Shown here: one piece after another, positions 11,304 to 58,063 of the stretch
Layout of the letters: each line of letters starts with the position of its first letter
Numbering within the stretch: the first letter of the stretch is position 1
Origin: Octopus sinensis
Lineage: Eukaryota
Reading direction: 5' to 3'
Assembly: GCF_006345805.1 (NCBI RefSeq)
Contig: NC_043018.1
Location: forward strand, 22,692,001 to 22,756,000
DNA: 64,000 nucleotides
The notes under the pieces: generated by a model
What the model saw: only the letters and a program-made list of their open reading frames with translations
Databases searched by the model: none
What the model was told of the DNA's origin: nothing
Position numbers and translations under genes: made by a program

Positions 11304-11574
11304 ATTCTTCCATACACACATGCATTTGTGCACCTTAGTTCAGCTGGGTCACCATTATTATCTCCCTTTCCCTCAGCCTCTTTCCTCCGCTCATTTCATC
11401 ATGTTAAACCATTAATCCCTACACATTCTCTTTCTCCGTTTTGTTTTCCCTCTCATCCCTTTCTTTCGAAGAGCATAGGTTCGAAACATCAAAGACTTTT
11501 CCATTCTTCCCAAGCATCAAACTAATACACCTGCTTGTTGTTCCCTCATTTCTCACTTGTTTTCTGTACATTTG

Positions 11575-12026
11575 CAGTAGCATCCACCCTTAGGAGTTAG
11601 CCATATTCAAATGGCAAATATACGTCACGATGTGTTGCTGCTACTGTTTATAACTCGCTCTGAGATTTATCATTGTTTGATTTCACTTTTTCAATATCAG
11701 TGTCAATCGATACTGGAAAAAGTATATGTATTTGTGAAGGGAACCTACTTCTCATCGACAACTATGATTGTCACACGTCGATGACGGGTCAATACTCTGA
11801 AACTCGAGTCCGTGTGTATCATAAGTTGAAGACGGGAAGGATGGCTTCCCTTTGCAAATACTGATAGGGCACAGAAAGTGTGTCTATAGCCAGCTGGAGG
11901 AGGTGTCCTCCTGGGGCTACAAACTACAGTAGCATCCACCCTTAGGGGTTAGCCATATTCAAATGGCAAATATACGTCACGATGTGTTGCTGCTACTGTT
12001 TATAACTCGCTCTGAGATTTATCATT
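11575..12026 (+). mobile_element. Retrozyme-like element: 352-bp unit plus 100-bp terminal direct repeat, with an internal hammerhead motif
   Basis: 11575-11674 equals 11927-12026 apart from one mismatch seen. Hammerhead-like motif at 11772-11816. Followed by (TA)n. Confidence 0.6.
11772..11816 (+). ncRNA. Type I hammerhead ribozyme-like motif, variant core
   Basis: CACACG-TCGATGA-C-GGGT(CAAT)ACTC-T-GAA-ACTCGAGT-C-CGTGTG: 6-bp stem I, palindromic stem III, canonical GUC triplet. The core reads TCGATGA rather than CTGATGA. Confidence 0.6.
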
Positions 12027-12499
12027 ATATATATATATATATATACTGTATTGTAATATGTATAAGAAACTCCCTAATTTTTGACAAAAAGGGGTTCCTT
12101 ATACACATTAAAGTATGGTATATATATCTTCAGCAATATAACTCCACATGTGCTGTTCACAATTTCTTTCCCTTTCTCCTTTCCGACGAAGAACCTTGCT
12201 CGAAATGTCAAACTCTCTTTTCACCAAGCGTCAAGCTAATACATTCCTTGTGCATATCCTCTTGTCCAATAATTCTATTCATTTATTTGAATTGACTAAA
12301 CACACACACACACACACACACACATGGTGAGTCAAATGTGACACACCAAAATATTTGGCATTTTATTTATATTATGTAATTAATCATTTTGTTTATCATG
12401 TGTGTATTCATCATTATTTTTTTTCTGTTACTCAATTTTTAAAAAAAATCGAAACCTGTCTGACAATTTCAGACCATATTGAAGTTATTTTGTGCACCA

Positions 12500-21299: not shown

Positions 21300-23890
21300 G
21301 CCACAAGGACAGCCATTTTGGGAGAGGGGTTAAGTCGATTACATCGACCCCAGTGTGTAACTGGTACTTAATTTATTGACCCCGAAAGGATGAAAAGCAA
21401 AGTCGACCTTGGCGGAATTTGAACTCAGAACGTAGCAACAGGCAAAATACCTATTTCTTTACTACCCACAAGGGGCTAAACACAGAGGGGACAAACAAGG
21501 ACAGACGAACAGATTAAGTTGATTATATCGACCCCAGTGCGCAACTGGTACTTATTTAATCGACCCCGAAAGGATGAAAGGCAAAGTCGACATCGGTGGA
21601 ATTTGAACTCAGAACGTAGCAACAGGCAAAATACCTATTTCTTTACTATCCACAAGGGGCTAAACACAGAGGGGACAAACAAGGACAGACGAACAGATTA
21701 AGTCGATTATATCGACCCCAGGGTGCAACTGGTACTTATTTAATCGACCCCGAAAGGATGAAAGGCAAAGTCAACATCGGTGGATTTGAACTCAGAACGT
21801 AGCAACAGGCAAAATACCTATTTCTTTACTATCCACAAGGGGCTAAACACAGAAGGGACAAACAAGGACAGACAAACGGATTAAGTCGATTATATCGACC
21901 CCAGTGTGCAACTGGTACTTATTTAATCGACCCCGAAAGGATGAAAGGCAAAGTCGACATCGGTGGAATTTGAACTCAGAACGTAGCAACAGGCAAAATA
22001 CCTATTTCTTTACTATCCACAAGGGGCTAAACACAGAAGGGACAAACAAGGACAGACACAACGGATTAAGTTGATTATATCGACCCCAGTGCGCAACTGG
22101 TACTTATTTAATCGACCCCGAAAGGATGAAAGGCAAAGTCGACATCGGTGGAATTTGAACTCAGAACGTAGCAACAGGCAAAATACCTATTTCTTTACTA
22201 TCCACAAGGGGCTAAACACAGAGGGGACAAACAAGGACAGACGAACAGATTAAGTTGATTATATCGACCCCAGTATGCGACTGGTACTTAATTAATCGAC
22301 CCCGAAAGGATGAAAGGCAAAGTCGACATCGGTGGAATTTGAACTCAGAACGTAGCAACAGGCAAAATACCTATTTCTTTACTATCCACAAGGGGCTAAA
22401 CACAGAGGGGACAAACAAGGACAGACGAACAGATTAAGTTGATTATATCGACCCCAGTGCGCAACTGGTACTTATTTAATCGACCCCGAAAGGATGAAAG
22501 GCAAAGTCAACATCGGTGGAATTTGAACTCAGAACGTAGCAACAGGCAAAATACCTATTTCTTTACTATCCACAAGGGGCTAAACACAGAAGGGACAAAC
22601 AAGGACAGACAAACGGATTAAGTCGATTATATCGACCCCAGTGTGCAACTGGTACTTATTTAATCGACCCCGAAAGGATGAAAGGCAAAGTCGACATCGG
22701 TGGAATTTGAACTCAGAACGTAGCAACAGGCAAAATACCTATTTCTTTACTATCCACAAGGGGCTAAACACAGAAGGGACAAACAAGGACAGACAAACGG
22801 ATTAAGTCGATTATATCGACCCCAGTGTGCAACTGGTACTTATTTAATCGACCCCGAAAGGATGAAAGGCAAAGTCGACATCGGTGGAATTTGAACTCAG
22901 AACGTAGCAACAGGCAAAATACCTATTTCTTTACTATCCACAAGGGGCTAAACACAGAGGGGACAAACAAGGACAGACGAACAGATTAAGTCGATTATAT
23001 CGACCCCAGTGTGCAACTGGTACTTATTTAATCGACCCCGAAAGGATGAAAGGCAAAGTCGACATCGGTGGAATTTGAACTCAGAACGTAGCAACAGGCA
23101 AAATACCTATTTCTTTACTATCCACAAGGGGCTAAACACAGAGGGGACAAACAAGGACAGACGAACAGATTAAGTCGATTATATCGACCCCAGTGTGCAA
23201 CTGGTACTTATTTAATCGACCCCGAAAGGATGAAAGGCAAAGTCGACATCGGTGGAATTTGAACTCAGAACGTAGCAACAGGCAAAATACCTATTTCTTT
23301 ACTATCCACAAGGGGCTAAACACAGAGGGGACAAACAAGGACAGACGAACGGATTAAGTTGATTATATCGACCCCAGTGCGCAACTGGTACTTATTTAAT
23401 CGACCCCGAAAGGATGAAAGGCAAAGTCGACATCGGTGGAATTTGAACTCAGAACGTAGCAACAGGCAAAATACCTATTTCTTTACTATCCACAAGGGGC
23501 TAAACACAGAGGGGACAAACAAGGACAGACGAACAGATTAAGTTGATTATATCGACCCCAGTGCGCAACTGGTACTTATTTAATCGACCCCGAAAGGATG
23601 AAAGGCAAAGTCGACATCGGTGGAATTTGAACTCAGAACGTAGCAACAGGCAAAATACCTATTTCTTTACTATCCACAAGGGGCTAAACACAGAGGGGAC
23701 AAACAAGGACAGACGAACAGATTAAGTTGATTATATCGACCCCAGTGCGCAACTGGTACTTATTTAATCGACCCCGAAAGGATGAAAGGCAAAGTCAACA
23801 TCGGTGGAATTTGAACTCAGAACGTAACGGCAGGCAAAATGCCACTAAGCATTTCGCCCGGCACACTAACAAACCTGCCAGCTTGCCACC
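21300..23890 (-). repeat. SINE family B-derived tandem array: one head plus ~13.5 copies of a 184-bp body
   Basis: The junction ACCTATTTCTTTACT recurs every 184 bp from ~21449 to ~23657 (13 junctions). There is a single A-box head at ~23840-23890. Confidence 0.95.
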
Positions 23891-26319
23891 TTAATAATAA
23901 TAATTCTTTCTACTGGAAGCACAGGGTTTCAAATTTGGGAGAAGGGATTAAGTCGATTACATCAACCCCAGTGCGTAACTGGTACTTATTTAATTGACCC
24001 CGAAAGGATGACAGGCAAAATCAACTTCAGCAGAATTTGAACTCAGATTGAAGTGAGTGGCAAAATATTGCTATGCATTTCACCCAGTGTGCTAACGATT
24101 CTGCCAGCTTGCCACCTTAACAACAATATTTTCTACTAAGGCCTGAAATTTTTGTGGAGGGGACCAGTCAATTATATCGACCCCAGTATGCGACTGGTAC
24201 TTAATTAATCGACCCCGAAAGGATGAAAGGCAAAGTTGATGTCGGCAGAATTTGAACTCAGAACCTAAAGACAGATGAAATACCGCTAAGCATTTTGCCC
24301 AGGGTGCTAACATTTTTGCCAGCTTGCTGCCTTAATAATAATAAAAATAATAATCCTTTCCACTGGAAGCACAAGGGATTAAGTCGATTACATTGACCCC
24401 AGTATGTAACTGGTACTAATTTTATCAACCCCACCGAGAGGATGAAAGGCAAAGTCGACCTTGGTGGATTTCGAGTGCCAAACCTACCTAACGGTGGACA
24501 AAATACCACTAGGCATTTCTCCAAACATGCTAATGATTCTGTCAGCTCATTGCCTTTGCTAACCAACCACATGGTTCCAGGTTCAGTCCCACTGCGTGGC
24601 ATCTTGGGCAAGTGTCTTCTGCTATAGCCCCGGGCCGACCAATGCCTTGTGAGTGGATTTGGTAGACGTATATATGTATATATATATATATGTATGTATG
24701 TGTGTGTGTTTGTGTGTCTGTGTTTGTCCCCCTAGCATTGCTTGACAACCGATGCTGGTGTGTTTATGTCCCTGTTCCTTAGCGGTTCGGCAAAAAGAGA
24801 CCGATAGAATAAGTACTGGGCTTACAAAGAATGAGTCCCGGGGTCGATTTGCTCGACTAAAGGCGGTGCTCCAGCATGGCCGCAGTCAAATGACTGAAAC
24901 AAGTAAAAGAGTAAAGAGTAAATAATAATAATAGTAATAATAATAATATTTTTTTTTTTTTAAATGAACGAACTATTGAGTTTGGTTTAATGGCCTACCA
25001 ATGTATACTATGAGTTTCTTTGCCCTAGGAGTCGGGAAGACACTCGGCAAGAAATGGAAGCAAATTTGAAAGAAGAAAAAAAAAAAGTAAGAATAATAAT
25101 AATAATAAATTTATTTCTATGAGCAATTGAAATGGAAATGAGTAAAAGGAAGTTTGATGAGGAAAAAGATCATCACAGCAATGATGATGATGTTTTAAAT
25201 AGACGTGAGAGTTAAGGCAAGTAGAGTTAAAAATAATAATAATAATTTTAATAATAATGATGATGATGATGATGATGATGAACTATGTGTTTATCTCTGA
25301 AGTTTTTTTTTTTTGTTATTTCTTTTGTTGGCACCCAAAACTTCTGTCTTCAGTTCACATAATGATGATGATGAAGATGACGATGATGACGGCGATGACG
25401 ATAGTGACGGTGTCATCATTTTCATCAAATCGTTCTCCATCCTGCGTGGTGATAAAAAAGTCTGTGGTATTTTGTATGAGGTTCTGGATGGGTATATGGG
25501 TGGGTGGGGGCGGGGTGGATGGATGGATGGATGGATGGGTGGATGGGTGGGGGAGGTCTTCTTTGATTATTTGTTTTTTTTTTCTTTTCTTATTTTATTG
25601 TTTATATATAATTATTCTTCTCTTTCCCCCCACCCCACCCCCACCCGTCCTTTCTTTTTCCTGCTAAGTGGAACGAATGATCGCAGAAAGTTCTATTAGC
25701 AGAGTAACTTATTGCCATAACAACTGTCATCGCTACCATCAACATCACTGCCGCCACCACCACCATCATCATCATCATCACTATTTCTTGATAGTGTCTG
25801 TATGCCAGATGGGACATTTCATTTGGCTTAATAATAATAATAATAATCCTTTCTACAAAAGGCACAAGGCCTGAAATTTGGGGTGAGTGGATAAGTACAT
25901 TATCTCGACCCCAGTATTTCATTGGTGCTTAATTTGTCGACCCCGAAAGGAGGAAAGTCAAAGTCGACCTCAGCGGGATTTGAACTCAGAATGTAGACAC
26001 GAAAGAAAATGCCGCTAAGCATTTTGCCTGGCGAGTTAACGATTCTGCCAGCTCGCCACTAATAAAAATAATTAAAAAAATAAAAATAATAATAATAAAA
26101 AGTAATAAAAAATGAATCGTCATCGTCGCCGTCATCATCATCATCATTGTTGTTGTCATCATCAATGTCTGTTGCTGATTATGTCAATATTACAAGGTGG
26201 TGATGTTGGTGATGTTGGTGGTGGTGGTGGTGGTGGCGGTGATGGTTGTGGTGGAGGGGACATTTCCTGTCTGTGGGTTTGTTTGCTTTTTTTTTCCCCC
26301 TATTTTTTTTTCTTTTTAA

Positions 26320-41224: not shown

Positions 41225-42161
41225 GGACGAAATGCTTAGCGGTATTTCATCTGCCGTTACGTTGTGAGTTCAAATTCCGCCGAGGTCAACTTTACCTTTC
41301 ATCCTTTCGGGGTCGATAAATTAAGTACCAGTTACGCACTGGGGTCGATGTAATCGACTTAATACCTATGTCTGTCCTTGTTGTCCCCTCTGTGTTTAGC
41401 CCCTTGTGGGTAATAAAGAAATAGGTATTTCAATCTGCCGTTACGTTGTGAGTTCAAATCCGCCGGGCGAGGTCGCTTTGCCTTTCACATCCTTTCGGGG
41501 TCGATAAATTAAGTACCAGTTACGCACTGGGGTCGATGTAATCGACTTAATACCTATGTCTGTCCTTGTTGTGTTCCCCTGTGTGTTAGCCCCTTGTGGG
41601 TAATAAAGAAATAGGTATTTCGTCTGCCGTTACGTTGTGAGTCCAAATTCCGCCGAGGTCGACTTTGCCTTTCATCCTTTCGGGGTCGATAAATTAAGTA
41701 CCAGTTACGCACTGGGGTCGATGTAATCGACTTAATACCTATGTCTGTCCTGTTTGTTCCCTCTGTGTTTAGCCCCTTGTGGGTAATAAAGAAATAGGTA
41801 TTTCGTCTGCCGTTACGTGTGAGTTCAAATTCCACGAGGTCGACTTTACCTTTCATCCTTTCGGGGTCGATAAATTAAGTACCAGTTACGCACTGGGGTC
41901 GATGTAATCGACTTAATACCTATGTCTGTCCTTGTTTGTTCCCTCTGTGTTTAGCCCTGGTGGTAATAAAGAAATAGGTATTTCGTCTGCCGTTACGTTG
42001 TGAGTTCAAATTCCGCCGAGGTCGACTTTACCTTTCATCCTTTCGGGGTCGATAAATTAAGTACCAGTTACGCACTGGGGTCGATGTAATCGACTTAATA
42101 CCTATGTCTGTCCTTGTTTGACCCCTCTATGTTTAGCCCCTTGTGGGTAATAAAGAAATAA
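41225..42161 (+). repeat. SINE family B tandem array, ~5 units
   Basis: Junction AAAGAAATAG|GTATTTC at about 41423, 41613, 41796 and 41976. Confidence 0.9.
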
Positions 42162-42855
42162 GTATATAGGTTATCAGAGTGAGACACAGTCCACCTGGCT
42201 GTATGTAGGTACCACAGTGAAGTACTGTTCAACTGGCAGTATTTGAGTACCAGACTGAAGTAGATTGTAGCAGTAATTCGAAACTGAATCCCTGGATAGG
42301 TAGTCAGACATCATGAGTAACACCATAGTTTCATACGATTGCTCCATTAACCAACTAATCAGTGAGAAGTGATGGCATGGACAGATTTTCTCGATCAATT
42401 TAGAATTTGAATTCCAGTCCCCTCTAAAAATCGTTTGGCATGCATTTTACAAGCCAGATTGTTGTTGTTGTTTGTTCCTTCTCGAGCCATGCCTGGCTCA
42501 TAGGGGCCGGTTTCCTGGTTTCTTGGCATATGCATTCCCCCACCTTGACGGGACGCCGGTCCGTCGCAGATCAGCTGCAAGGTGCAGGAGGAAAGAGTGA
42601 GAGAAAGTTGTGGCGAAAGAGTCAGCAGAAGTCCACCACTACCTTCTGCCGGAGCCGCGTGGAGCTTAGGTGTTTCGCTCATAAACACACACATCGCCCG
42701 GTCTGAGATTCGAACCCGCGATCCCTCGACCACGAGTCCGCTGCTCTAACCAGTAGACCATGTGCCTCCACACCTACTAGCCAGATGACCCAGCAAAACA
42801 GCTATGATAAATGATGCAGATGGATAACAGGAACTTCCATCACCACAGATATATA

Positions 42856-43273
42856 CCTATTTCTTTACTACCCACAAGGGGCTAAACACAGAGGGGACAA
42901 ACAAGGACAGACAAATGGATTAAGTCGATTACATCGACCCCAGTGCATGACTGGTGCTTAATTTATCGACCCCGAAAGGATGAAAGGCAAAGTCGACCTC
43001 GGCGGAATTTGAACTCAGAACGTAGCAGCAGACGAAATACCTATTTCTTTACTATCCACAAGGGGCTAAACACAGAGGGGACAAACAAGGACAGACAAAT
43101 GGATTAATTCGATTACATCGACCCCAGTGCATGACTGGTGCTTAATTTATCGACCCCGAAAGGATGAGAGGCAAAGTCGACCTCGGCGGAATTTGAACAC
43201 AGAACGTAGCAGCAGACGAAATACCGCATAGCATTTCACCCGGCGTGCTAACGATTCTACCAGCTTGCCGCCT
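42856..43273 (-). mobile_element. SINE family B dimer (head plus 2 bodies)
   Basis: Same junction as the longer arrays, at ~43040. Confidence 0.9.
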
Positions 43274-44836
43274 TACCATTAGTTCCCAGTTATGTTAGGC
43301 AAGCCGCATGTTGTCATATCAGTAGCTTGCCATAGACTTTAAGCAGTATTTCTCTCCAAGTATGTAATCATTGCTGTTGTTATTAGTAAAAGGCCAACTT
43401 ACTTTGTCTTTATGTGCAATAATAAAACCTCGTGTTACATGTTCATGGGTGTTGTTTGGTTAATTCTCTATGCAGCCCAAGAAACATTTACAGTCACCAC
43501 CACTGACCAGCCCCTAGAGACTGCAACAAGATTATATCAGAGAGAGGAATGACCCACCAAGTTTTATATAGGTAAAAGGATAAAGACCCCCTTCGGTCAT
43601 CAATGACCATGGGATTGCACCTAGAAAGTCCCCCTCCAAGGCACAAGTCCAAGCAAGGTTGTTTATGAAAGATCAGCAGTCGCCCATGCATGCCAGCCTC
43701 TCCTGTCCATGCCACTCATGTTATCCAACGGAAAGGCAAAGGAACTGATACAGCAACTCATTTCCACAGATGAGTGAACTGGAGCAACGCGAAATAAAGT
43801 GTCTTGCTCAAGAACATAACACACAGCCCAGCCCAGGAATCGAACTTACTACCTCATGATTTTGCGTTGCTGTTATGTTCTGAGTTCAAATTCCACCAAG
43901 GTCAACCTTGCCTTTCATCCTCTCAGGGTCAATTAAATAAGTACCAGTTACACACTGGGGTCGGTGTAATCGACTGCACCTGTTTGTCTTTGTTTGTCCT
44001 CTCTGTGTTTAGCCCCTTGTGGGTAGTAAAGAAATAGATATTTTGCGTTGCTGTTATGTTCTGAGTTCAAACTCCGCCAAGGTCGACGTTGCCTTTCATC
44101 CTATTGGGGTCAATTAAATAAGTACCAGTTACACACTGGGGTCCATGTAATCAACTTAATCCCTTTGTCTGTCCTTGTTTGTCCCCTCTATGTTTAGCCT
44201 CCTCCCTACCTGTGGGCAATAGGGTAATAAAGAAATAAATATCTGTAGCGTAATATATGACTTTCTAATTAAGGACAAATTAGTCACCAATTGAGTAATT
44301 AATTAGCTTAGATAAAATACTGACAAATGAGCAGAAAGATAAGTATAGGTAGGTACCACAGTGAAGTACATTCCATCTAGTTGTACGCAAGTACCGGAGT
44401 ATAATTCCATCTAGCTGTAAGTAGGTACCACCATGGAGCCAGATCCTCTTTGCTATAAGTGTGTTTTAGATAAATGTCCATATCAGGCTGTGTGGGTAAG
44501 AAGCTTGCTTTCTATCTGCATGTATCAGGGTTCAGTTCTGCTGCATGGCACTTTGGGCAACTATCTTCTGCTATAGCTCTTTTCTGATCAAAGCCTTGTA
44601 AGTGGATTTAGTGGATGGAAACTGAAAGAAGCCCGTTGTATATATGTTCTATTCTTCTACTTGTTTCCATCATTTGACTGCGGCCATGCAGGAGCATCGT
44701 CTTTAGTTGAACAAATCAACATCAGGACTTATTCTTTGTAAGCCTAGTATTTATTCTATCGAACCGCTAAGTTACAGAGATGTAAACACACCAACATCGG
44801 TTGTCAAGTGATGGTGGGGGACAAACACAGATATGC

Positions 44837-46119: not shown

Positions 46120-47797
46120 TTATTTCTTTATTACCCTATTGCCCACAGGAGGGGAGGAGGCTAAACATAGAGGGGACAAACAAGGACAGACAAAGGGATT
46201 AAGTTGATTACACCGACCCCAGTGTGTAACTGGTACTTATTTAATCGACTCCCGAGAGGATGAAAGGCAAGGTCGACCTTGGCAGAGTTTGAACTCAGAA
46301 CATAACAGCAACGCAAAATATCTATTTCTTTACTACCCACAAGGGGCTAAACACAAAGAGGACAAACAAGGACAGACAAACAGATGAAGTCAATTATATC
46401 GACCCCAGTGTGTAACTGGTACTTATTTAATTGACCCCCGAGAGGATGAAAGACAAGGTCGACCTTGGCGGAATTGAACTCAGAACATAACAGCAACGCA
46501 AAATATCTATTTCTTATAGCCACAAGGGGCTAAACACAAAGAGGAAAAACAGATGAAGTCAAATTATACGACCCCAGGTGTAACTGGTACTTATTTAATC
46601 GACCCCGAAAGGATGAAAGGCAAGGTCAACCTTGGCTGAATTGGAACTCAGAACATAACAGCAATGCAAAATACCTATTTCTTACTACCACACGGGGCTA
46701 AAACACAACGAGGACAACCAAGACAGACAAAAGATGCAGTCGATTACACCGACCCAAGTGTGTAACTGGTACTTATTTTCCCCGAGATGATGAAAGGCAA
46801 GGTCGACCTTGGCGGAATTTGAATCAGAACATAACAGCAACGCCAAAATATCTATTCTTTACTACCCACAAGGGGCTAAACACAAAGAGGACAAACAAGG
46901 ACAGACAAACAGATGAAGTCAATTATATCGACCCCAGTGTGTAACTGGTACTTATTTAATTGACCCCCGAGAGGATGAAAGGCAAGGTCGACCTTGGCGG
47001 AATTTGAACTCAGAACATAACAGCAACGCAAAATATCTATTTCTTTACTACTCACAAGGGGCTAAACACAAAGAGGACAAACAGATGAAGTCAATTATAT
47101 CGACCCCAGTGTGTAACTGGTACTTATTTATTCGACCCCGAAAGGATGAAAGGCAAGGTCGACCTTGGCGGAATTTGAACTCAGAACATAACAGCAATGC
47201 AAAATACCTATTTCTTTACTAGCCACAAGGGGCTAAACACAAAGAGGATAAACAGATGAAGTCAATTATATCGACCCCAGTGTGTAACTGGTACTTATTT
47301 AATCGACCCCCGAGAGGATGAAAGGCAAGGTCGACCTTGGCGGAATTTGAACTCAGAACATAACAGCAATGCAAAATACCTATTTCTTTACTACCCACAA
47401 GGGGCTAAACACAAAGAGGACAAACCAAGACAGACAAACAGATGCAGTCGATTACACCGACCCCAGTGTGTAACTGGTACTTATTTTATCGACCCCCGAG
47501 AGGATGAAAGGCAAGGTCGACCTTGGCGGAATTTGAACTCAGAACATAACAGCAACGCAAAATACCTATTTCTTTACTACCCACAAAGGGCTAAACACAA
47601 AGAGGACAAACAAGGACAGACAAACAGATGAAGTCAATTATATCGACCCCAGTGTGTAACTGGTACTTATTTTATCGACCTCCAAGAGGATGAAAGGCAA
47701 AGTCGACCTCGGTGGAATTTGAACTCAGAATGTAACGGCAGATGAAATACCGCTAAGTATTTCACCCAGCGTGCTAACGACTCTGCCAGTTCACCAC
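46120..47797 (-). repeat. SINE family B tandem array, ~9 units
   Basis: The junction TA(T/C)CTATTTCTTTACT recurs every ~172-185 bp. Single head at ~47745-47797. Confidence 0.9.
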
Positions 47798-50389: not shown

Positions 50390-51367
50390 AGGCGGCGAGC
50401 TGGCAGAATCGTTAGCACGCCGGGCGAAATGCTTAGCGGTATTTCGGCTGCCGTTACGTTCTGAGTTCAAATTCCGCCAAGGTCGACTTTGCCTTTCATC
50501 CTTTCGAGGTCGATAAATTAAGTACCAGTTACGCACTGGGGTCGATGTAATCGATTTAATACCTATGTCTGTCCTTGTTTGTTCCCTCTGTGTTTAGCCC
50601 CTAGTGGGTAATAAAGAAATAGGTATTTCGGCTGCCGTTACGTTCTGAGTTCAAATTCCACCAAGGTCGACTTTGCCTTTCATCCTTTTGAGGTCGATAA
50701 ATTAAGTACCAGTTACGAACTGGGGTCGATGTAATCGACTTAATACCTATGTCTGTCCTTGTTTGTCCCCTCTATGTTTAGCCCCTTGTGGGTAATAAAG
50801 AAATATGTATTTCGTCTGCCATTACGTTCTGAGTTCAAATTCCGCCAAGGTCGACTTTGCCTTTCATCCTTTCGGGGTCGATTAAATAAGTACCAGTTAC
50901 ACACTGGTGTCGATATAATCGACTTCATCCGTTTGTCTGTCCTTGTTTGTCCCCTCTATGTTTAGCCCCTTGTGGGTAATAAAGAAATATGTATTTCGTC
51001 TGCCATTACGTTCTGAGTTCAAATTCCGCCAAGGTCGACTTTGCCTTTCATCCTTTCGAGGTTGATAAATTAAGTACCAGTTACACACTGGGGTCGATGT
51101 AATCGACTTAATACCTATGTCTGTCCTTGTCTTTTTCTTCCCCTCTATGTTTAGCCCCTTGTGGTAATAAAGAAATATGTTATTTCGTCTGCCATTACGT
51201 CTGAGTTCAAATTCGCCAAGGTCGACTTTGCCTTTCATCCTTTCGGGGTCGATTAAATAAGTACCAGTTACACACTGGTGTCGATATAATCGACTTCATC
51301 CGTTTGTCTGTCCTTGTTTGTCCCCTCTATGTTTAGCCCCTTGTGGGTAGTAAAGAAATAGGTATTT
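50390..51367 (+). repeat. SINE family B tandem array (head plus 5 bodies) within an imperfect TSD
   Basis: Head GGCGGCGAGCTGGCAGAATCG, junctions at about 50622, 50805, 50989 and 51177. Flanks are AACGTTAAACAATGTG / AACATTAACCAATGTG. Confidence 0.9.
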
Positions 51368-51572: not shown

Positions 51573-51929
51573 GCTGTGAATTCGTGTAAGATTTCGTTGT
51601 TATTTCTAGCATTTCAAGCGACTACCTAAAAGCTTCCTTATCAACTTATTCGTATATTTACTTTCCACTTGTTGTGATAGCGGCGGCGGTGGTGGTGTTT
51701 GGTTGCCAATTACAACCTTATAATGTTACTTTAATAGTCCTCCTCTCGCGTAGTTGCTGTCATTAAGAACTTCCTGCTCACTCTGTGTTTTATTTTTAAT
51801 TATTATGTCCCGTAATTCACTTCACAGTAACCACTCAACCAACAGATGGAGCAGTTTTTCCAGTTCCTGGAATTGTAGTTTTCTCTAGATCAGGACGTAT
51901 TGTACTTGTATTTTTGTTCAGCTAGAAAT

Positions 51930-54185
51930 ATGATCGTTCATTTGTCCTCCGCGAAACATTCGCACGATTTAGTCGTTCCAATCGATAAAAGATGTAATGT
52001 TCTTTTCTCTACCAACATCGAAGAGTTTGATCATATAATTTGGTGGAAGGGTCTTTTAATTCAAGAAATTTTCATATGCTGTCATACGTTCACCGTCCAA
52101 GTGAGGAAGAACACAGAACGATCGCTTTTGGATGATACTATCAACGGACTTACTGATAAAAAAACTTTGAGACGTCTTTCTGTGGAACAAGCAAGACAAC
52201 AACAACAGCAAGAAGATAAAGAAGATGATGGTATATTATATACGACAGATACACTTTTAACTCGGGAGCAGATTGAGGAAACTGGAGCCATTCTTTTCAA
52301 GCATTCACGTAAGAAGATATCGAATGTAGTTCTTGGAATGTACGTAATGAAATTGCTTTACTGTTATATTCTACCTCGTTTGTTAATAACTCTAGAAGAC
52401 CTTCCATTTCTAAAAGCACTGCAACAACTCATAAATAAGGAATATTTTGTCATTCAAAAGGAAATTATGGATAATGATTGTAAAATTCTGCAAACGACAA
52501 ACGAACTCGCTAAAAAACGAGAGATATTGTGTTCTTTCACCGAACCTCACCAAGACAGCTTCTTTGCTGCTATTGACAAATCGTTTCTGGAGACCCTTCG
52601 TTCACATTTTATTAACGATTTATCTTACATGGAAGAACACTATATGGCATCACAAATGCAGATAAAGGAGTCGAAAAACAATTCGGATAAAAGAAATACC
52701 TTGTATTTTGAGCAAATGGAAAGTCAAAGAATTATTGAACGGACACAGAGATGGAAAAAAATATTAACAAAAATCAACCACAGACTCAGAGAACCCCTGA
52801 AACAGTCTAAAAGGAAAAGTATAAAGTTGGAAAATAATATACTGGAACTTTGTGATTACTCAAAAATTTTCCAAGATGTTAAAGAGTGCAAAATGAAAAT
52901 GAAAATGGATTGCTTTTACAAAATTAAAATTCTTGCTATTGGCGAATTGATTAAAACATCTGTTTACGAAGTTGAAACATTTTGCGAATCTTTAGGGACC
53001 AGTAATAAGAGGAATACTATTTCCAGCTTTTTGGTAACTTACGACCATGATGTGTCTTCACATTGGCAAACATGCGAAGAGAAAATTCTTATTGTTTTAA
53101 CGAACCATAATGAAATTCGACAGAAGCATTTAGACTTTATTAGCGAAATAAACGGAAAGGTTTCTCTTTCCCTGTCGGACGATACTATCTTCAGATTAGC
53201 AGACACTGATCGGTTCGATGTAAAAAGTTGTGATATTGTTGGCCAAGCTGAAAATCTAGCTGGAAGATTTGGTCCCGGAGAAGAAAGTAGTTTCCCGCAA
53301 CCGTTCAGTGAACTTACAGAGTTGACATTTATGCAACTCAAAGAGAGGATTTCTGAACATGTCTATCAAATGCACGAGGAATTAATCACAATTTCAGAAC
53401 TTGAAAAGAGCGAACAAAAAATGATATTTGTTATATATGAAGATCTGTTATTTAACGAAATCATGGAAGATTTATACAAATTGTCCAAGATTGCCTGTAA
53501 ATCTTATTGCAGGTGCATTTGGGAAAAAGTGAGTACTTTGCCTTTTAGTAGTTTGCCTATAAGCGAAGTATTTACGAAGATTGAAAAACGAATGTCGAGG
53601 TTAAGTCGTTATCACAGAAGCAAAAGTATATTCGATTTTCAAAACTCTTTCCCCTCTCTTAGTTTTGAATCTGCTTTGAAATCCAAGTCGGTATCAACTC
53701 TGTATAAGGTGGCCGACATAGATGAACAATGCCAAATGCTTCAGACACTTGATTTAGAAACGAAACCAACATCGAAAAGAAACAGTTCCGTTTACGTAAG
53801 ACGTGACACAATAACCCTTGAAGAATTCTGCGAACACTTCAAACCGGCCTTGATGAATATCAAGGAAATTTTAAAATCTCCTACCATCCTGTCAAAGCTT
53901 CATGCCATTCAACTGTCAGTAAAATGCATATCTAATTGCATCCTTGATAACCAGAAAAGGCCTGCCACGGCTGACGATATAATTACTTCTTTGTGTGGAT
54001 TACTTAAGTCACTCAATAAGGAACAGTTCCAGACATTGTGCTATCAGTTGGCGTTGGTGGACATTTTTATTCCACAGTCACATCGGATTGGACCCTATGG
54101 TAACTCCCTAATTCACTTTAACTGTTCATTACAGGCTCTCTATATTGAGAGTTGTAACGAAATTAGGCACCACGCCCAGTTCTGA
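51930..54185 (+). CDS. Intronless ORF encoding a VPS9-domain protein (VPS9D1-like putative Rab5-family GEF)
   Basis: 751 aa from the first ATG in otherwise repeat-choked DNA. The C-terminus HFKPALMNIKEILKSPTILSKLHAIQ...ATADDIITSL...LALVDIFIPQSHRIGPYGNSLIHFNCSL follows the VPS9 pattern (xKL, ADD, GxxGYxL). Acceptor-like sites just upstream (TTTTCTCTAG, TTTTGTTCAG) leave the true start uncertain. Confidence 0.75.
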   Translation: MIVHLSSAKHSHDLVVPIDKRCNVLFSTNIEEFDHIIWWKGLLIQEIFICCHTFTVQVRKNTERSLLDDTINGLTDKKTLRRLSVEQARQQQQQEDKEDDGILYTTDTLLTREQIEETGAILFKHSRKKISNVVLGMYVMKLLYCYILPRLLITLEDLPFLKALQQLINKEYFVIQKEIMDNDCKILQTTNELAKKREILCSFTEPHQDSFFAAIDKSFLETLRSHFINDLSYMEEHYMASQMQIKESKNNSDKRNTLYFEQMESQRIIERTQRWKKILTKINHRLREPLKQSKRKSIKLENNILELCDYSKIFQDVKECKMKMKMDCFYKIKILAIGELIKTSVYEVETFCESLGTSNKRNTISSFLVTYDHDVSSHWQTCEEKILIVLTNHNEIRQKHLDFISEINGKVSLSLSDDTIFRLADTDRFDVKSCDIVGQAENLAGRFGPGEESSFPQPFSELTELTFMQLKERISEHVYQMHEELITISELEKSEQKMIFVIYEDLLFNEIMEDLYKLSKIACKSYCRCIWEKVSTLPFSSLPISEVFTKIEKRMSRLSRYHRSKSIFDFQNSFPSLSFESALKSKSVSTLYKVADIDEQCQMLQTLDLETKPTSKRNSSVYVRRDTITLEEFCEHFKPALMNIKEILKSPTILSKLHAIQLSVKCISNCILDNQKRPATADDIITSLCGLLKSLNKEQFQTLCYQLALVDIFIPQSHRIGPYGNSLIHFNCSLQALYIESCNEIRHHAQF

Positions 54186-56832: not shown

Positions 56833-58063
56833 GTGTGTGTGTGTGTGTGTCTTTATGTCTGTGTTTGTCTCGCCACCATCGCTTGACAGCCGATGTTGGT
56901 GTGTTTATGTCTGTAATTCGCAAAAAAGTAACCGATAGAATAAGTACTAGTCTACAAAGAATAAGCCCTGGGTCGATTTCTTCGACTAAAGCCCTTTAAG
57001 GCGGTGTTTCAGCATGACCGAAGTCAAATGACTGAACATAAAAGAATAATTATAATATATATATTATATATATATTGGTGATTGAAGAAATGGAGAATTC
57101 ACCAATAATGTTTAATTTCAATTATCCGCACCAACGCACGGTTGCAACGCCAGATGGTTGTACCTCCAACCGTGCTGTTCACGCTGTGATTTTTGCTACT
57201 AAGGTATCGGTTAAACTTTTGATTAATCTACTACAAGATTATTCATCTTTCTATTTCACATTATATATATATATATATATATATGTTTGTTTGTTCCTTC
57301 TCGAACCATGCCTGGCTCATAGGGCCGGTTTCCTTGGCGTATAGGTTCCCAACCTGGACGGGACACCGGTCCGCCACAGGTGAGCTGCTAGATGCAGGAA
57401 GAAAGAGTGAGAGAAAGTTGTGGCAAAGGGTCAGCAAATTACCTTTTGCCGGTCTGAGATTCGAACCCGCGATTCCTCGACAGCGAGTCCGCTGCTCTAA
57501 CCACGAAGCCATGTGCCTACACACACAACACACACACACACACATATACTTCGCTTTTGTATTTGGTTTACAAGATTCTTGCTATGAATTCGTGTGTTGA
57601 AACAAAATTTTTTTGTGTATTGGGTGAATCTGGCAAGACAACAAAATAGATATACATTTACATATACATATATGGTTCAAATTTACAGAAAACGAAAGAC
57701 GAAAACAGGTGTAGGAACGACAAGCAGGTGTATTAAGTTTAACGCTTGGGAAGAATGGAAAGGTCTTTGACGTTTCGAGCCTACGCTCACAACAGAAAGG
57801 ATTGAAAGAAAAAGAATAAAAAAACGAGGGAAAAATTGTATAGAGATTAACGGTTCAAACATGTGTGTATGTATGTATAAACTATTTTATTGAAGCTGAG
57901 AAAAGACTGTCTGATGAACGGTTACATGAAAACCCGGGTAACAATTTGTAAAGGTTTTTTTTGTGATTTTTTTTTTTTTTTTGCTTCAATAAATACTATT
58001 TTATTCTACCTTTGGTATTCGAGTACTATTTTTCTCCACTTCGTTTTGCTTCTATGTTCTTAG

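What the first reader, a model, noticed from the sequence alone, without database searches (positions are those of the whole stretch)
11575..12026. Retrozyme-like unit: 1.3 copies of a 352-bp monomer containing a hammerhead with a GUC site
Seen: a 100-bp near-identical direct repeat with 352-bp period, no ORF, several internal hairpins (GGGAAG/CTTCCC, GGAGGA/TCCTCC), and a type I hammerhead fold at 11772-11816 with a 6-bp stem I, ACTCGAGT palindromic stem III and GUC triplet. Known: metazoan non-LTR retrozymes are small tandem units of a few hundred nt with type I hammerheads that yield circular RNAs. Inference: the more-than-unit-length structure fits reverse transcription around a circular RNA, making this a candidate cephalopod circRNA/retrozyme family. 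Caveat: this copy has TCGATGA and mismatched bases at the base of stem II, so it may be inactive.
Basis: partly seen in the sequence, partly recalled or inferred. Interest (0 to 1): 0.8.

Follow-up and report, generated by a model that had tools for sequence, protein, structure and literature searches.

The report
Octopus retrozyme carrying Penelope insertion footprint
This is one damaged copy of a small non-coding jumping element with a hammerhead-ribozyme motif, present at well over a thousand places in this genome, whose insertion ends match those left by Penelope-type retrotransposons and whose repeat pattern likely comes from copying round a circular RNA, which would be genomic evidence for how animal retrozymes spread.

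Summary
Observation confirmed: 100-nt repeat, 352-nt period, type I hammerhead fold at 11772-11816. The copy belongs to a family with 1,205 exact hits to a 17-nt end motif; its largest, youngest subfamily (653 exact hits) has a fully canonical hammerhead. The window copy has one ribozyme with two core changes (C3U private, U4C shared by its subfamily), so it is probably a dead end. Start points are scattered but 3' ends are fixed at two sites 43-46 nt apart, next to (TA)n: the Penelope-like-element (PLE) 'tail'. In 97 of 98 inverted two-arm insertions one arm uses each site, and both arms share template variants. 97 of 110 arms read through the cleavage site; multimers up to about 8 units keep the same fixed ends and share locus-private variants in all units. 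Best reading: a non-LTR retrozyme, likely copied round a circular monomer by a PLE reverse transcriptase. Not shown: the circular RNA, cleavage, the helper PLE. The 1.3-unit structure alone does not prove a circle. The scan noted a similar palindromic PLE-type insertion on other DNA (e1-7858806). Known class, new member; the insertion anatomy speaks to an open question.

The parts
11575..12026 (+). Whole insertion: one 452-nt arm (1.28 units), variable 5' end, fixed 'long' 3' end
   Evidence: end classes
11575..11674 (+). 5' partial copy (unit positions 1-100, second round)
   Evidence: one difference from the 3' copy, private to this locus (2 of 71 aligned segments)
11927..12026 (+). 3' copy of unit positions 1-100; holds both inferred reverse-transcription start sites; predicted multibranch of three hairpins at unit 1-72
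11723..11866 (+). Long rod hairpin that extends stem I and presents the hammerhead at its tip
   Evidence: (90.5% of cells paired, 40 cells changed on both sides against 19.4 in shuffles)
11772..11816 (+). Type I hammerhead motif; single, core-mutated copy
11778..11784 (+). Core positions 3-9, here UCGAUGA: C3U nearly private (2 of 136 distinct segments), U4C shared by the subfamily
11785..11798 (+). Stem II and loop; C.U mismatch at the base; second pair is G-C or A-U across subfamilies (compensatory)
   Evidence: (pair 56-67: GC 20, AU 15, GU 2 of 39)
11802..11809 (+). Short palindromic stem III (2 bp plus 4-nt loop), the form that allows dimeric hammerheads
   Evidence: sequence; unchanged in 90 of 136 distinct segments; dimer role from PMC4209133
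11810..11811 (+). Predicted cleavage site after GUC
   Evidence: hammerhead geometry; GTCC in 135 and GTAC in 16 of 162 segments, gaps no commoner than elsewhere
11896..11911 (+). GGAGGA/TCCTCC hairpin
11981..11983 (+). 'Short' fixed 3' end of the family (unit 55-57), in a hairpin with a CACG loop; not the end used by this copy
   Evidence: 43 of 117 arms end exactly at 57; G55T recurs only at terminal copies, 11 cases
11984..12026 (+). 43-nt optional 'tail' up to the 'long' fixed end (unit 100-103)
   Evidence: tail definition from PMC11167929, PMC8557442
12027..12045 (.). (AT)n target microsatellite
   Evidence: 69 of 110 discovery arms are followed by (TA)3 or more

Best explanation
This is a 5'-truncated copy of a 352-nt non-coding, hammerhead-bearing retroelement that has two fixed 3' ends next to (TA)n and was likely made when a Penelope-like (PLE) reverse transcriptase/GIY-YIG protein, acting in trans, copied once and a quarter round what was likely a circular RNA monomer. 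Steps: (1, inferred) loci with two or more hammerheads are transcribed, self-cleave after GUC, probably as dimeric ribozymes, and the monomer is ligated into a circle. (2, footprint shown, enzyme inferred) the PLE protein nicks (TA)n DNA and primes cDNA at one of two internal sites, unit 55-57 or 100-103. (3, shown as a pattern) synthesis runs backwards round the unit with about 0.5% drop-off per nucleotide and no hard stop at the cleavage site or at unit length. (4, pattern shown, mechanism inferred) often both target strands are primed on the same template, one at each site, and the two cDNAs join head to head; otherwise one arm joins the target directly, as here. The window copy has one hammerhead with C3U and U4C and would not release a monomer by itself.
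For: Family size: 2,793 first-look candidates, 1,205 exact hits to a 17-nt end motif. Fixed ends: 106 of 117 BLAST arms in 68 discovery loci end at unit 48-60 or 95-107. One long plus one short end in 40 of 41 discovery and 57 of 57 validation inverted insertions and, by my reading, 15 of 15 in the multimer loci. Two internal start sites, a tail and extension of both strands are what a purified PLE protein does (PMC11167929). An RT/GIY-YIG PLE of this genome (781-aa ORF) shows the same long/short inverted pairs at (TA)n in 11 of 28 loci read. Both arms share template variants: 58 mismatches in 1,115 polymorphic cells (5%) against 41% between loci (77 pairs). Read-through: 97 of 110 arms that reach unit 243 pass the cleavage site; gaps there 0.3% against 0.85% elsewhere. 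Successive rounds differ by 2.8% against 8.1% between loci (35 arms). In canonical-subfamily multimers all units, on both inverted arms, share variants private to the locus (L297 four, L290 two in 7 of 7 units, L291, L293, L294, L309; within 0.76%, between 1.46%). Hammerhead kept by selection on structure; canonical core with G10.1-C11.1 in 653 exact hits. Animal retrozymes of this size are expressed as circles in coral, mussel and axolotl (PMC7229834).
Against: No RNA, circle or cleavage was observed. No helper was identified: none of 39 GIY-YIG loci has this unit as its terminal repeat, PLE fragments beside 10 of 268 element loci come from several families, and the one PLE family examined has a tail of about 80 nt, not 43-46. 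Subfamilies with U4C and a mismatched stem II base also amplified (235 exact hits), and PLE insertion in vitro did not need hammerhead cleavage (PMC11167929), so cleavage may be dispensable. A homogeneous linear multimer would give much the same read-through. The subfamily richest in multimers is also the youngest (1.4% against 3.7-4.1% pairwise), and a second subfamily with U4 and an A-U pair has few (1 of 22 arms past the second site).
Confidence: 0.68

Rival explanations
1. PLE-mobilised mini-element copied from uncut, linear multi-unit transcripts; the hammerhead is incidental to insertion and no circle is needed.
For: 97 of 110 arms read through the cleavage site; core-impaired subfamilies amplified; hammerhead mutants did not change PLE insertion in vitro and no RNA ends were seen at the site in Anolis (PMC11167929); arrays of 7-8 units exist that could serve as masters.
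Against: Mutations in a genomic array arise unit by unit, yet locus-private variants are shared by all units of an insertion and no position-specific difference between rounds recurs across loci except G55T at the primed end; each subfamily has its own homogeneous repeats; stem II keeps pairing through compensatory change.
Confidence: 0.2
2. The template is a cleaved linear monomer and multimers arise by the enzyme jumping from its 5' end to the 3' end of another monomer.
For: In the discovery set 9 arms stopped within 6 nt of the cleavage site against 4 in the flanking 48 nt, 3 exactly at it.
Against: Not replicated in 100 independent loci (4 against 16, p 0.59); gaps at the junction are rarer than elsewhere; jumps between monomers would mix subfamily variants, which is rare (33 of 588 polymorphic cells).
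Confidence: 0.06
3. The repeat is a local DNA-level duplication or satellite expansion (unequal crossing over) of a dispersed monomer, as proposed for retrozyme arrays in the 2026 preprint.
For: One 7-unit array shares a core-inactivating change in 6 listed units; whole insertions are duplicated at L238, L293, L305.
Against: Multimers are dispersed, end at the two fixed sites beside (TA)n and occur on both inverted arms of one insertion with shared private variants; arm lengths fall off smoothly from 40 nt to over 1,000 nt. It may still explain the longest arrays.
Confidence: 0.04
4. The unit is only the orphaned terminal repeat (pLTR) of an autonomous PLE, left by 5' truncation.
For: Same end anatomy as an autonomous PLE of this genome; Xenopus retrozymes are homologous to pLTRs (10.64898/2026.07.22.740005).
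Against: Long arms run on into further units, not into an ORF; 5' flanks of 65 single-arm loci share no common upstream sequence beyond scattered unrelated pairs; no match as terminal repeat in 39 GIY-YIG loci, which are a small sample of 5,029 candidates.
Confidence: 0.04

Closest known systems
Metazoan non-LTR retrozymes (Cervera and de la Pena 2020, PMC7229834; mussel 350-390 nt, axolotl 330 and 350 nt)
   Same: Non-coding unit of 352 nt, 42% GC, highly self-paired, type I hammerhead with 6-bp stem I, 4-5-bp stem II and short palindromic stem III, tandem dimers to multimers; a pyrimidine mismatch at the base of stem II as in axolotl HHR_Amex2.
   Different: Circular RNA and cleavage were shown there and not here; that paper's text does not mention cephalopods, inverted copies or microsatellite targets and names PLEs only as a strong candidate for mobilisation. 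Here most copies are sub-monomer truncations with fixed ends.
EN+ Penelope-like elements and their insertions (Craig 2021 PMC8557442; Arkhipova 2013 PMC3846280; Frangieh 2024 PMC11167929)
   Same: Partial tandems, 5' truncation, inverted 5' copy, optional tail at one end, AT-rich or (TA)n target, two internal start sites, hammerhead in the repeated end.
   Different: No ORF; tail 43-46 nt rather than 30-40; hammerhead of canonical rather than minimal architecture; the whole element is the repeated unit.
Vertebrate retrozymes as non-autonomous PLE derivatives (Li, Clavereau, Pollet 2026, 10.64898/2026.07.22.740005)
   Same: Monomer, dimer and multimer forms; co-occurrence with PLEs.
   Different: That work rests on co-occurrence and pLTR homology, includes no mollusc among the species classes it names, and invokes local amplification for arrays; here no parent pLTR was found, but the ends and the shared variants point to multimers made at insertion.
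Non-autonomous Chlamys PLEs such as MRC1 (PMC8557442)
   Same: [quoted passage not shown]
   Different: Those generally share 3' sequence with an autonomous family and most Chlamys lack canonical hammerheads.

Membership tests
non-LTR retrozyme | Non-coding unit of about 150-450 nt, low GC, no LTR/PBS/PPT layout | tested here: met
   352 nt, 42% GC, no ORF over 64 aa, no tRNA
non-LTR retrozyme | Type I hammerhead with intact core in the family | tested here: met
   653 exact hits for the canonical form, 191 for CTGATGA, RF00163 32.2 bits on L180, compensatory pairs
non-LTR retrozyme | Intact core in this copy | tested here: not met
   C3U and U4C, C.U at stem II base; U4C is a known natural variant of reduced activity (PMC3088659)
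non-LTR retrozyme | Tandem arrays with two or more consecutive hammerheads in the family | tested here: met
   25 of the first 100 listed canonical hits are same-strand neighbours at 344-356 nt (counted by eye); arrays. The window copy itself has one hammerhead
non-LTR retrozyme | Highly self-paired monomer | tested here: met
   z -7.2; 67% of bases paired when folded as a circle
non-LTR retrozyme | Expressed as unit-length linear and circular RNA | tested here: inconclusive
   No holder on record as RNA; only contigs were available
non-LTR retrozyme | Self-cleavage | not testable with these tools
   needs in vitro transcription; the genomic proxy (pile-up of 5' ends) did not replicate
PLE-mobilised (non-autonomous) element | Two fixed 3' ends with an optional tail, at one end of an inverted insertion | tested here: met
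   97 of 98
PLE-mobilised (non-autonomous) element | 5' truncation, partial tandems, inverted 5' copy, (TA)n target | tested here: met
PLE-mobilised (non-autonomous) element | Sequence shared with the terminal repeat of an autonomous PLE | tested here: inconclusive
   none in 39 GIY-YIG loci, a small sample of 5,029 candidates
autonomous PLE | RT plus GIY-YIG ORF | tested here: not met
   long arms repeat the unit

The most novel reading that the evidence does not exclude
A PLE protein dimer primes both strands of one (TA)n target on a single circular retrozyme RNA, one subunit at each of two fixed sites, and runs round it by rolling-circle reverse transcription, so that multimers are born at insertion; the family is a thousand-event genomic record of retrozyme circRNA retrotransposition, with ribozyme-intact and ribozyme-impaired subfamilies side by side.
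Probability: 0.45. Interest if true: 0.75.

Novelty: new member of a known kind. Interest (0 to 1): 0.55.

Why it matters
How animal retrozymes get back into the genome is proposed, not shown: PLEs were named as candidates (PMC7229834) and supported by co-occurrence and repeat homology (2026 preprint). Here the insertions themselves carry the PLE two-start signature, with a near-absolute one-long-one-short rule and shared template variants that constrain the PLE mechanism in vivo, and multimers look made at insertion rather than by later satellite growth. A 352-nt RNA with known start sites, natural intact and impaired ribozyme variants and intact PLE ORFs in the same genome makes a compact test system for whether circularisation matters. 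My searches found no paper describing a cephalopod retrozyme.

Tried and rejected
RNA: no RNA holder listed; the four runs laid are contigs guessed to be RNA, so they show neither ends, strand nor level, and a circle junction cannot be told from genomic tandems; a loose end followed up led to one old truncated copy. Canonical core as mere CpG decay of CCGA: rejected, the mirror change CCAATGA has 18 hits (6 in one array) against 191. My early view that the youngest subfamily is the U4C one: wrong, an artefact of querying with the window copy; the youngest is canonical. Pile-up of 5' ends at the cleavage site: seen in discovery, not in validation. L109 and L099 as parent PLEs: rejected, the unit sits there as a separate insertion in (TA)n. 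A single helper family beside the element: not found. 'Intact ribozyme gives longer arms': 6 of 22 against 4 of 64 arms pass a second cleavage site, but it is post hoc, one lineage, and confounded with age. Microhomology at inversion junctions: BLAST overlap median 1 nt, 29 of 98 at 4 or more, no control run, so not claimed. Rfam microRNA rows lie on microsatellites, below gathering scores. The PLE protein had no relative in viral contigs.

Full report
Observation. The repeat is real: 11575-11674 and 11927-12026, 99% identical, 352 apart, against at most 13 nt in shuffles. The unit has no ORF over 64 aa and folds with z -7.2. Positions below are unit positions (window = 11574 + n).

Family. 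The own-genome search gave 2,793 candidates, 40 scored, 93-98% identical apart from the window itself; a 17-nt end motif has 1,205 exact hits and its control none. There are at least four recent subfamilies plus older copies at 77-91%. Exact motif counts: core CCGATGA 235, CTGATGA 191, CCAATGA 18, and a fully canonical form with CTGACGA and G10.1-C11.1, 653. The canonical subfamily is the youngest (1.4% pairwise against 3.7-4.1%) and matches RF00163 at 32.2 bits, below the gathering score of 34. On 39 diverse copies (43 picked, 4 with large indels left out) the rod plus hammerhead keeps 90.5% of cells paired, with 40 two-sided changes against 19.4 in shuffles; the number of pairs with such a change (8) is not above shuffles, and relatedness inflates these measures. 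The clearest case is stem II, G-C in 20 and A-U in 15. The window copy belongs to the U4C subfamily and adds C3U, seen in 2 of 136 distinct segments. U4C lowers activity in vitro but is tolerated in a viroid (PMC3088659, passages read). With one hammerhead and two core changes this copy is probably a dead end (inference).

Ends. I took every locus among the first 100 listed hits of the end motif (68 loci) and 100 further loci picked from lists of end-plus-(TA)n motifs (one gave no alignment). 106 of 117 discovery arms end at 48-60 or 95-107, 43 exactly at 57; 69 of 110 are followed by (TA)n. 5' ends are scattered round the unit. Inverted two-arm insertions have one long and one short end in 40 of 41 and 57 of 57 cases; independence would give about half. 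The two arms differ at 5% of polymorphic cells against 41% between loci (77 pairs with enough overlap), so they come from one template sequence. The only recurrent difference between an internal and a terminal copy is G55T, which makes the end read as target (TA)n (11 cases) and fits priming by the nicked target. A purified Anolis PLE protein cleaves and extends both strands of AT-rich DNA and starts at two adjacent internal sites, which define the genomic tail (PMC11167929, main text read); tails at one end of inverted insertions and (TA)n bias are described for PLEs (PMC8557442 and PMC3846280, passages). This genome has intact RT plus GIY-YIG ORFs, and one such family shows long/short inverted pairs at (TA)n in 11 of 28 loci by my reading, with a tail of about 80 nt. 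So PLE-type mobilisation is well supported; the helper itself was not found.

Template. Drop-off is about 0.5% per nucleotide with no hard stop; 46 of 272 arms exceed 352 nt and 5 exceed 704 by BLAST length, which includes up to about 11 nt of (AT)n at long ends. 97 of 110 arms pass the cleavage site; an excess of stops there in discovery (9 against 4) vanished in validation (4 against 16); gaps at the site are not raised (162 segments). A cut linear monomer is therefore not the usual template. In 20 canonical loci chosen for multimers or inversions, arrays of up to about 8 units keep the same two ends, and variants private to a locus are shared by all its units, on both arms (for example four in L297, two in all 7 units of L290); within-locus divergence is 0.76% against 1.46%. 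That is what repeated copying of one monomer predicts; a linear master array would pass on unit-specific differences, and none recurred. A freshly homogenised linear array is not excluded. Same-strand neighbours at unit spacing are 25 of 100 listed hits for the canonical form against 2 and 0 of 100 for the others (counted by eye), but age and a U4, A-U subfamily with few multimers weaken any link to ribozyme strength.

RNA. Untested in effect: no holder on record as RNA, only contigs.

Comparison and verdict. It meets the DNA-level features of non-LTR retrozymes (PMC7229834: results parts 2-3 and discussion read; supplements not read) and works like a non-autonomous PLE (10.64898/2026.07.22.740005: parts 1-3 read, supplements closed; PMC4209133: parts 1-2 read). 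Searches for cephalopod or octopus hammerheads and for retrozyme insertion anatomy showed no description of this family or of the end rule in retrozymes; a 2026 octopus repeat annotation lists 31 recently active Penelope-like families and does not use the word ribozyme (PMC13282606, passages). Species lists in unread supplements or Repbase could already hold it. Verdict: new member of a known kind, interest 0.55, mostly for the insertion anatomy rather than for this damaged copy.

Noticed in passing
window 11430-11574: The insertion directly follows the end of a different, older, abundant repeat (hits in 26 of 339 loci plus window 57678-57808) with a minimal-hammerhead look (GAAGAG...CTCGAAAC); probably another PLE-type end.
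   Followed up: partly
window 12165-12254, 48173 and 342: Further minimal-hammerhead-like motifs; those at 12182 and 48173 have the core CCGACGA.
   Followed up: partly
L077, L102, L109:2242 (minus): Unrelated hammerhead-like motifs near PLE ORFs also read CCGANGA; U4C may recur in several families of this genome.
   Followed up: no
L103:674-6591: Tandem PLE with an intact 781-aa RT/GIY-YIG ORF, an overlapping upstream 479-aa frame and 99% identical 653-bp direct repeats; near-identical ORFs at several loci suggest recent activity.
   Followed up: partly
L294:814-815: A PLE ORF fragment is joined without (TA)n to a short inverted fragment of the element; a chimera or a deletion.
   Followed up: no
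L111:1512-4141: Seven-unit array whose units carry the inactivating core change CCAATGA, still with the long/short inverted end pair.
   Followed up: partly
validation loci such as L203, L224, L236, L240: Many 26-nt stubs start at unit 74-77, where the unit reads TTTATA, flanked by (TA)n on both sides; likely 5' joining by similarity to the target.
   Followed up: no
window 51879-54182 (+): A 768-codon open frame, not examined.
   Followed up: no
window 21330-24344, 41241-44199, 46547-47730, 50438-51367: Several arrays of a 182-227-bp satellite of one family.
   Followed up: no
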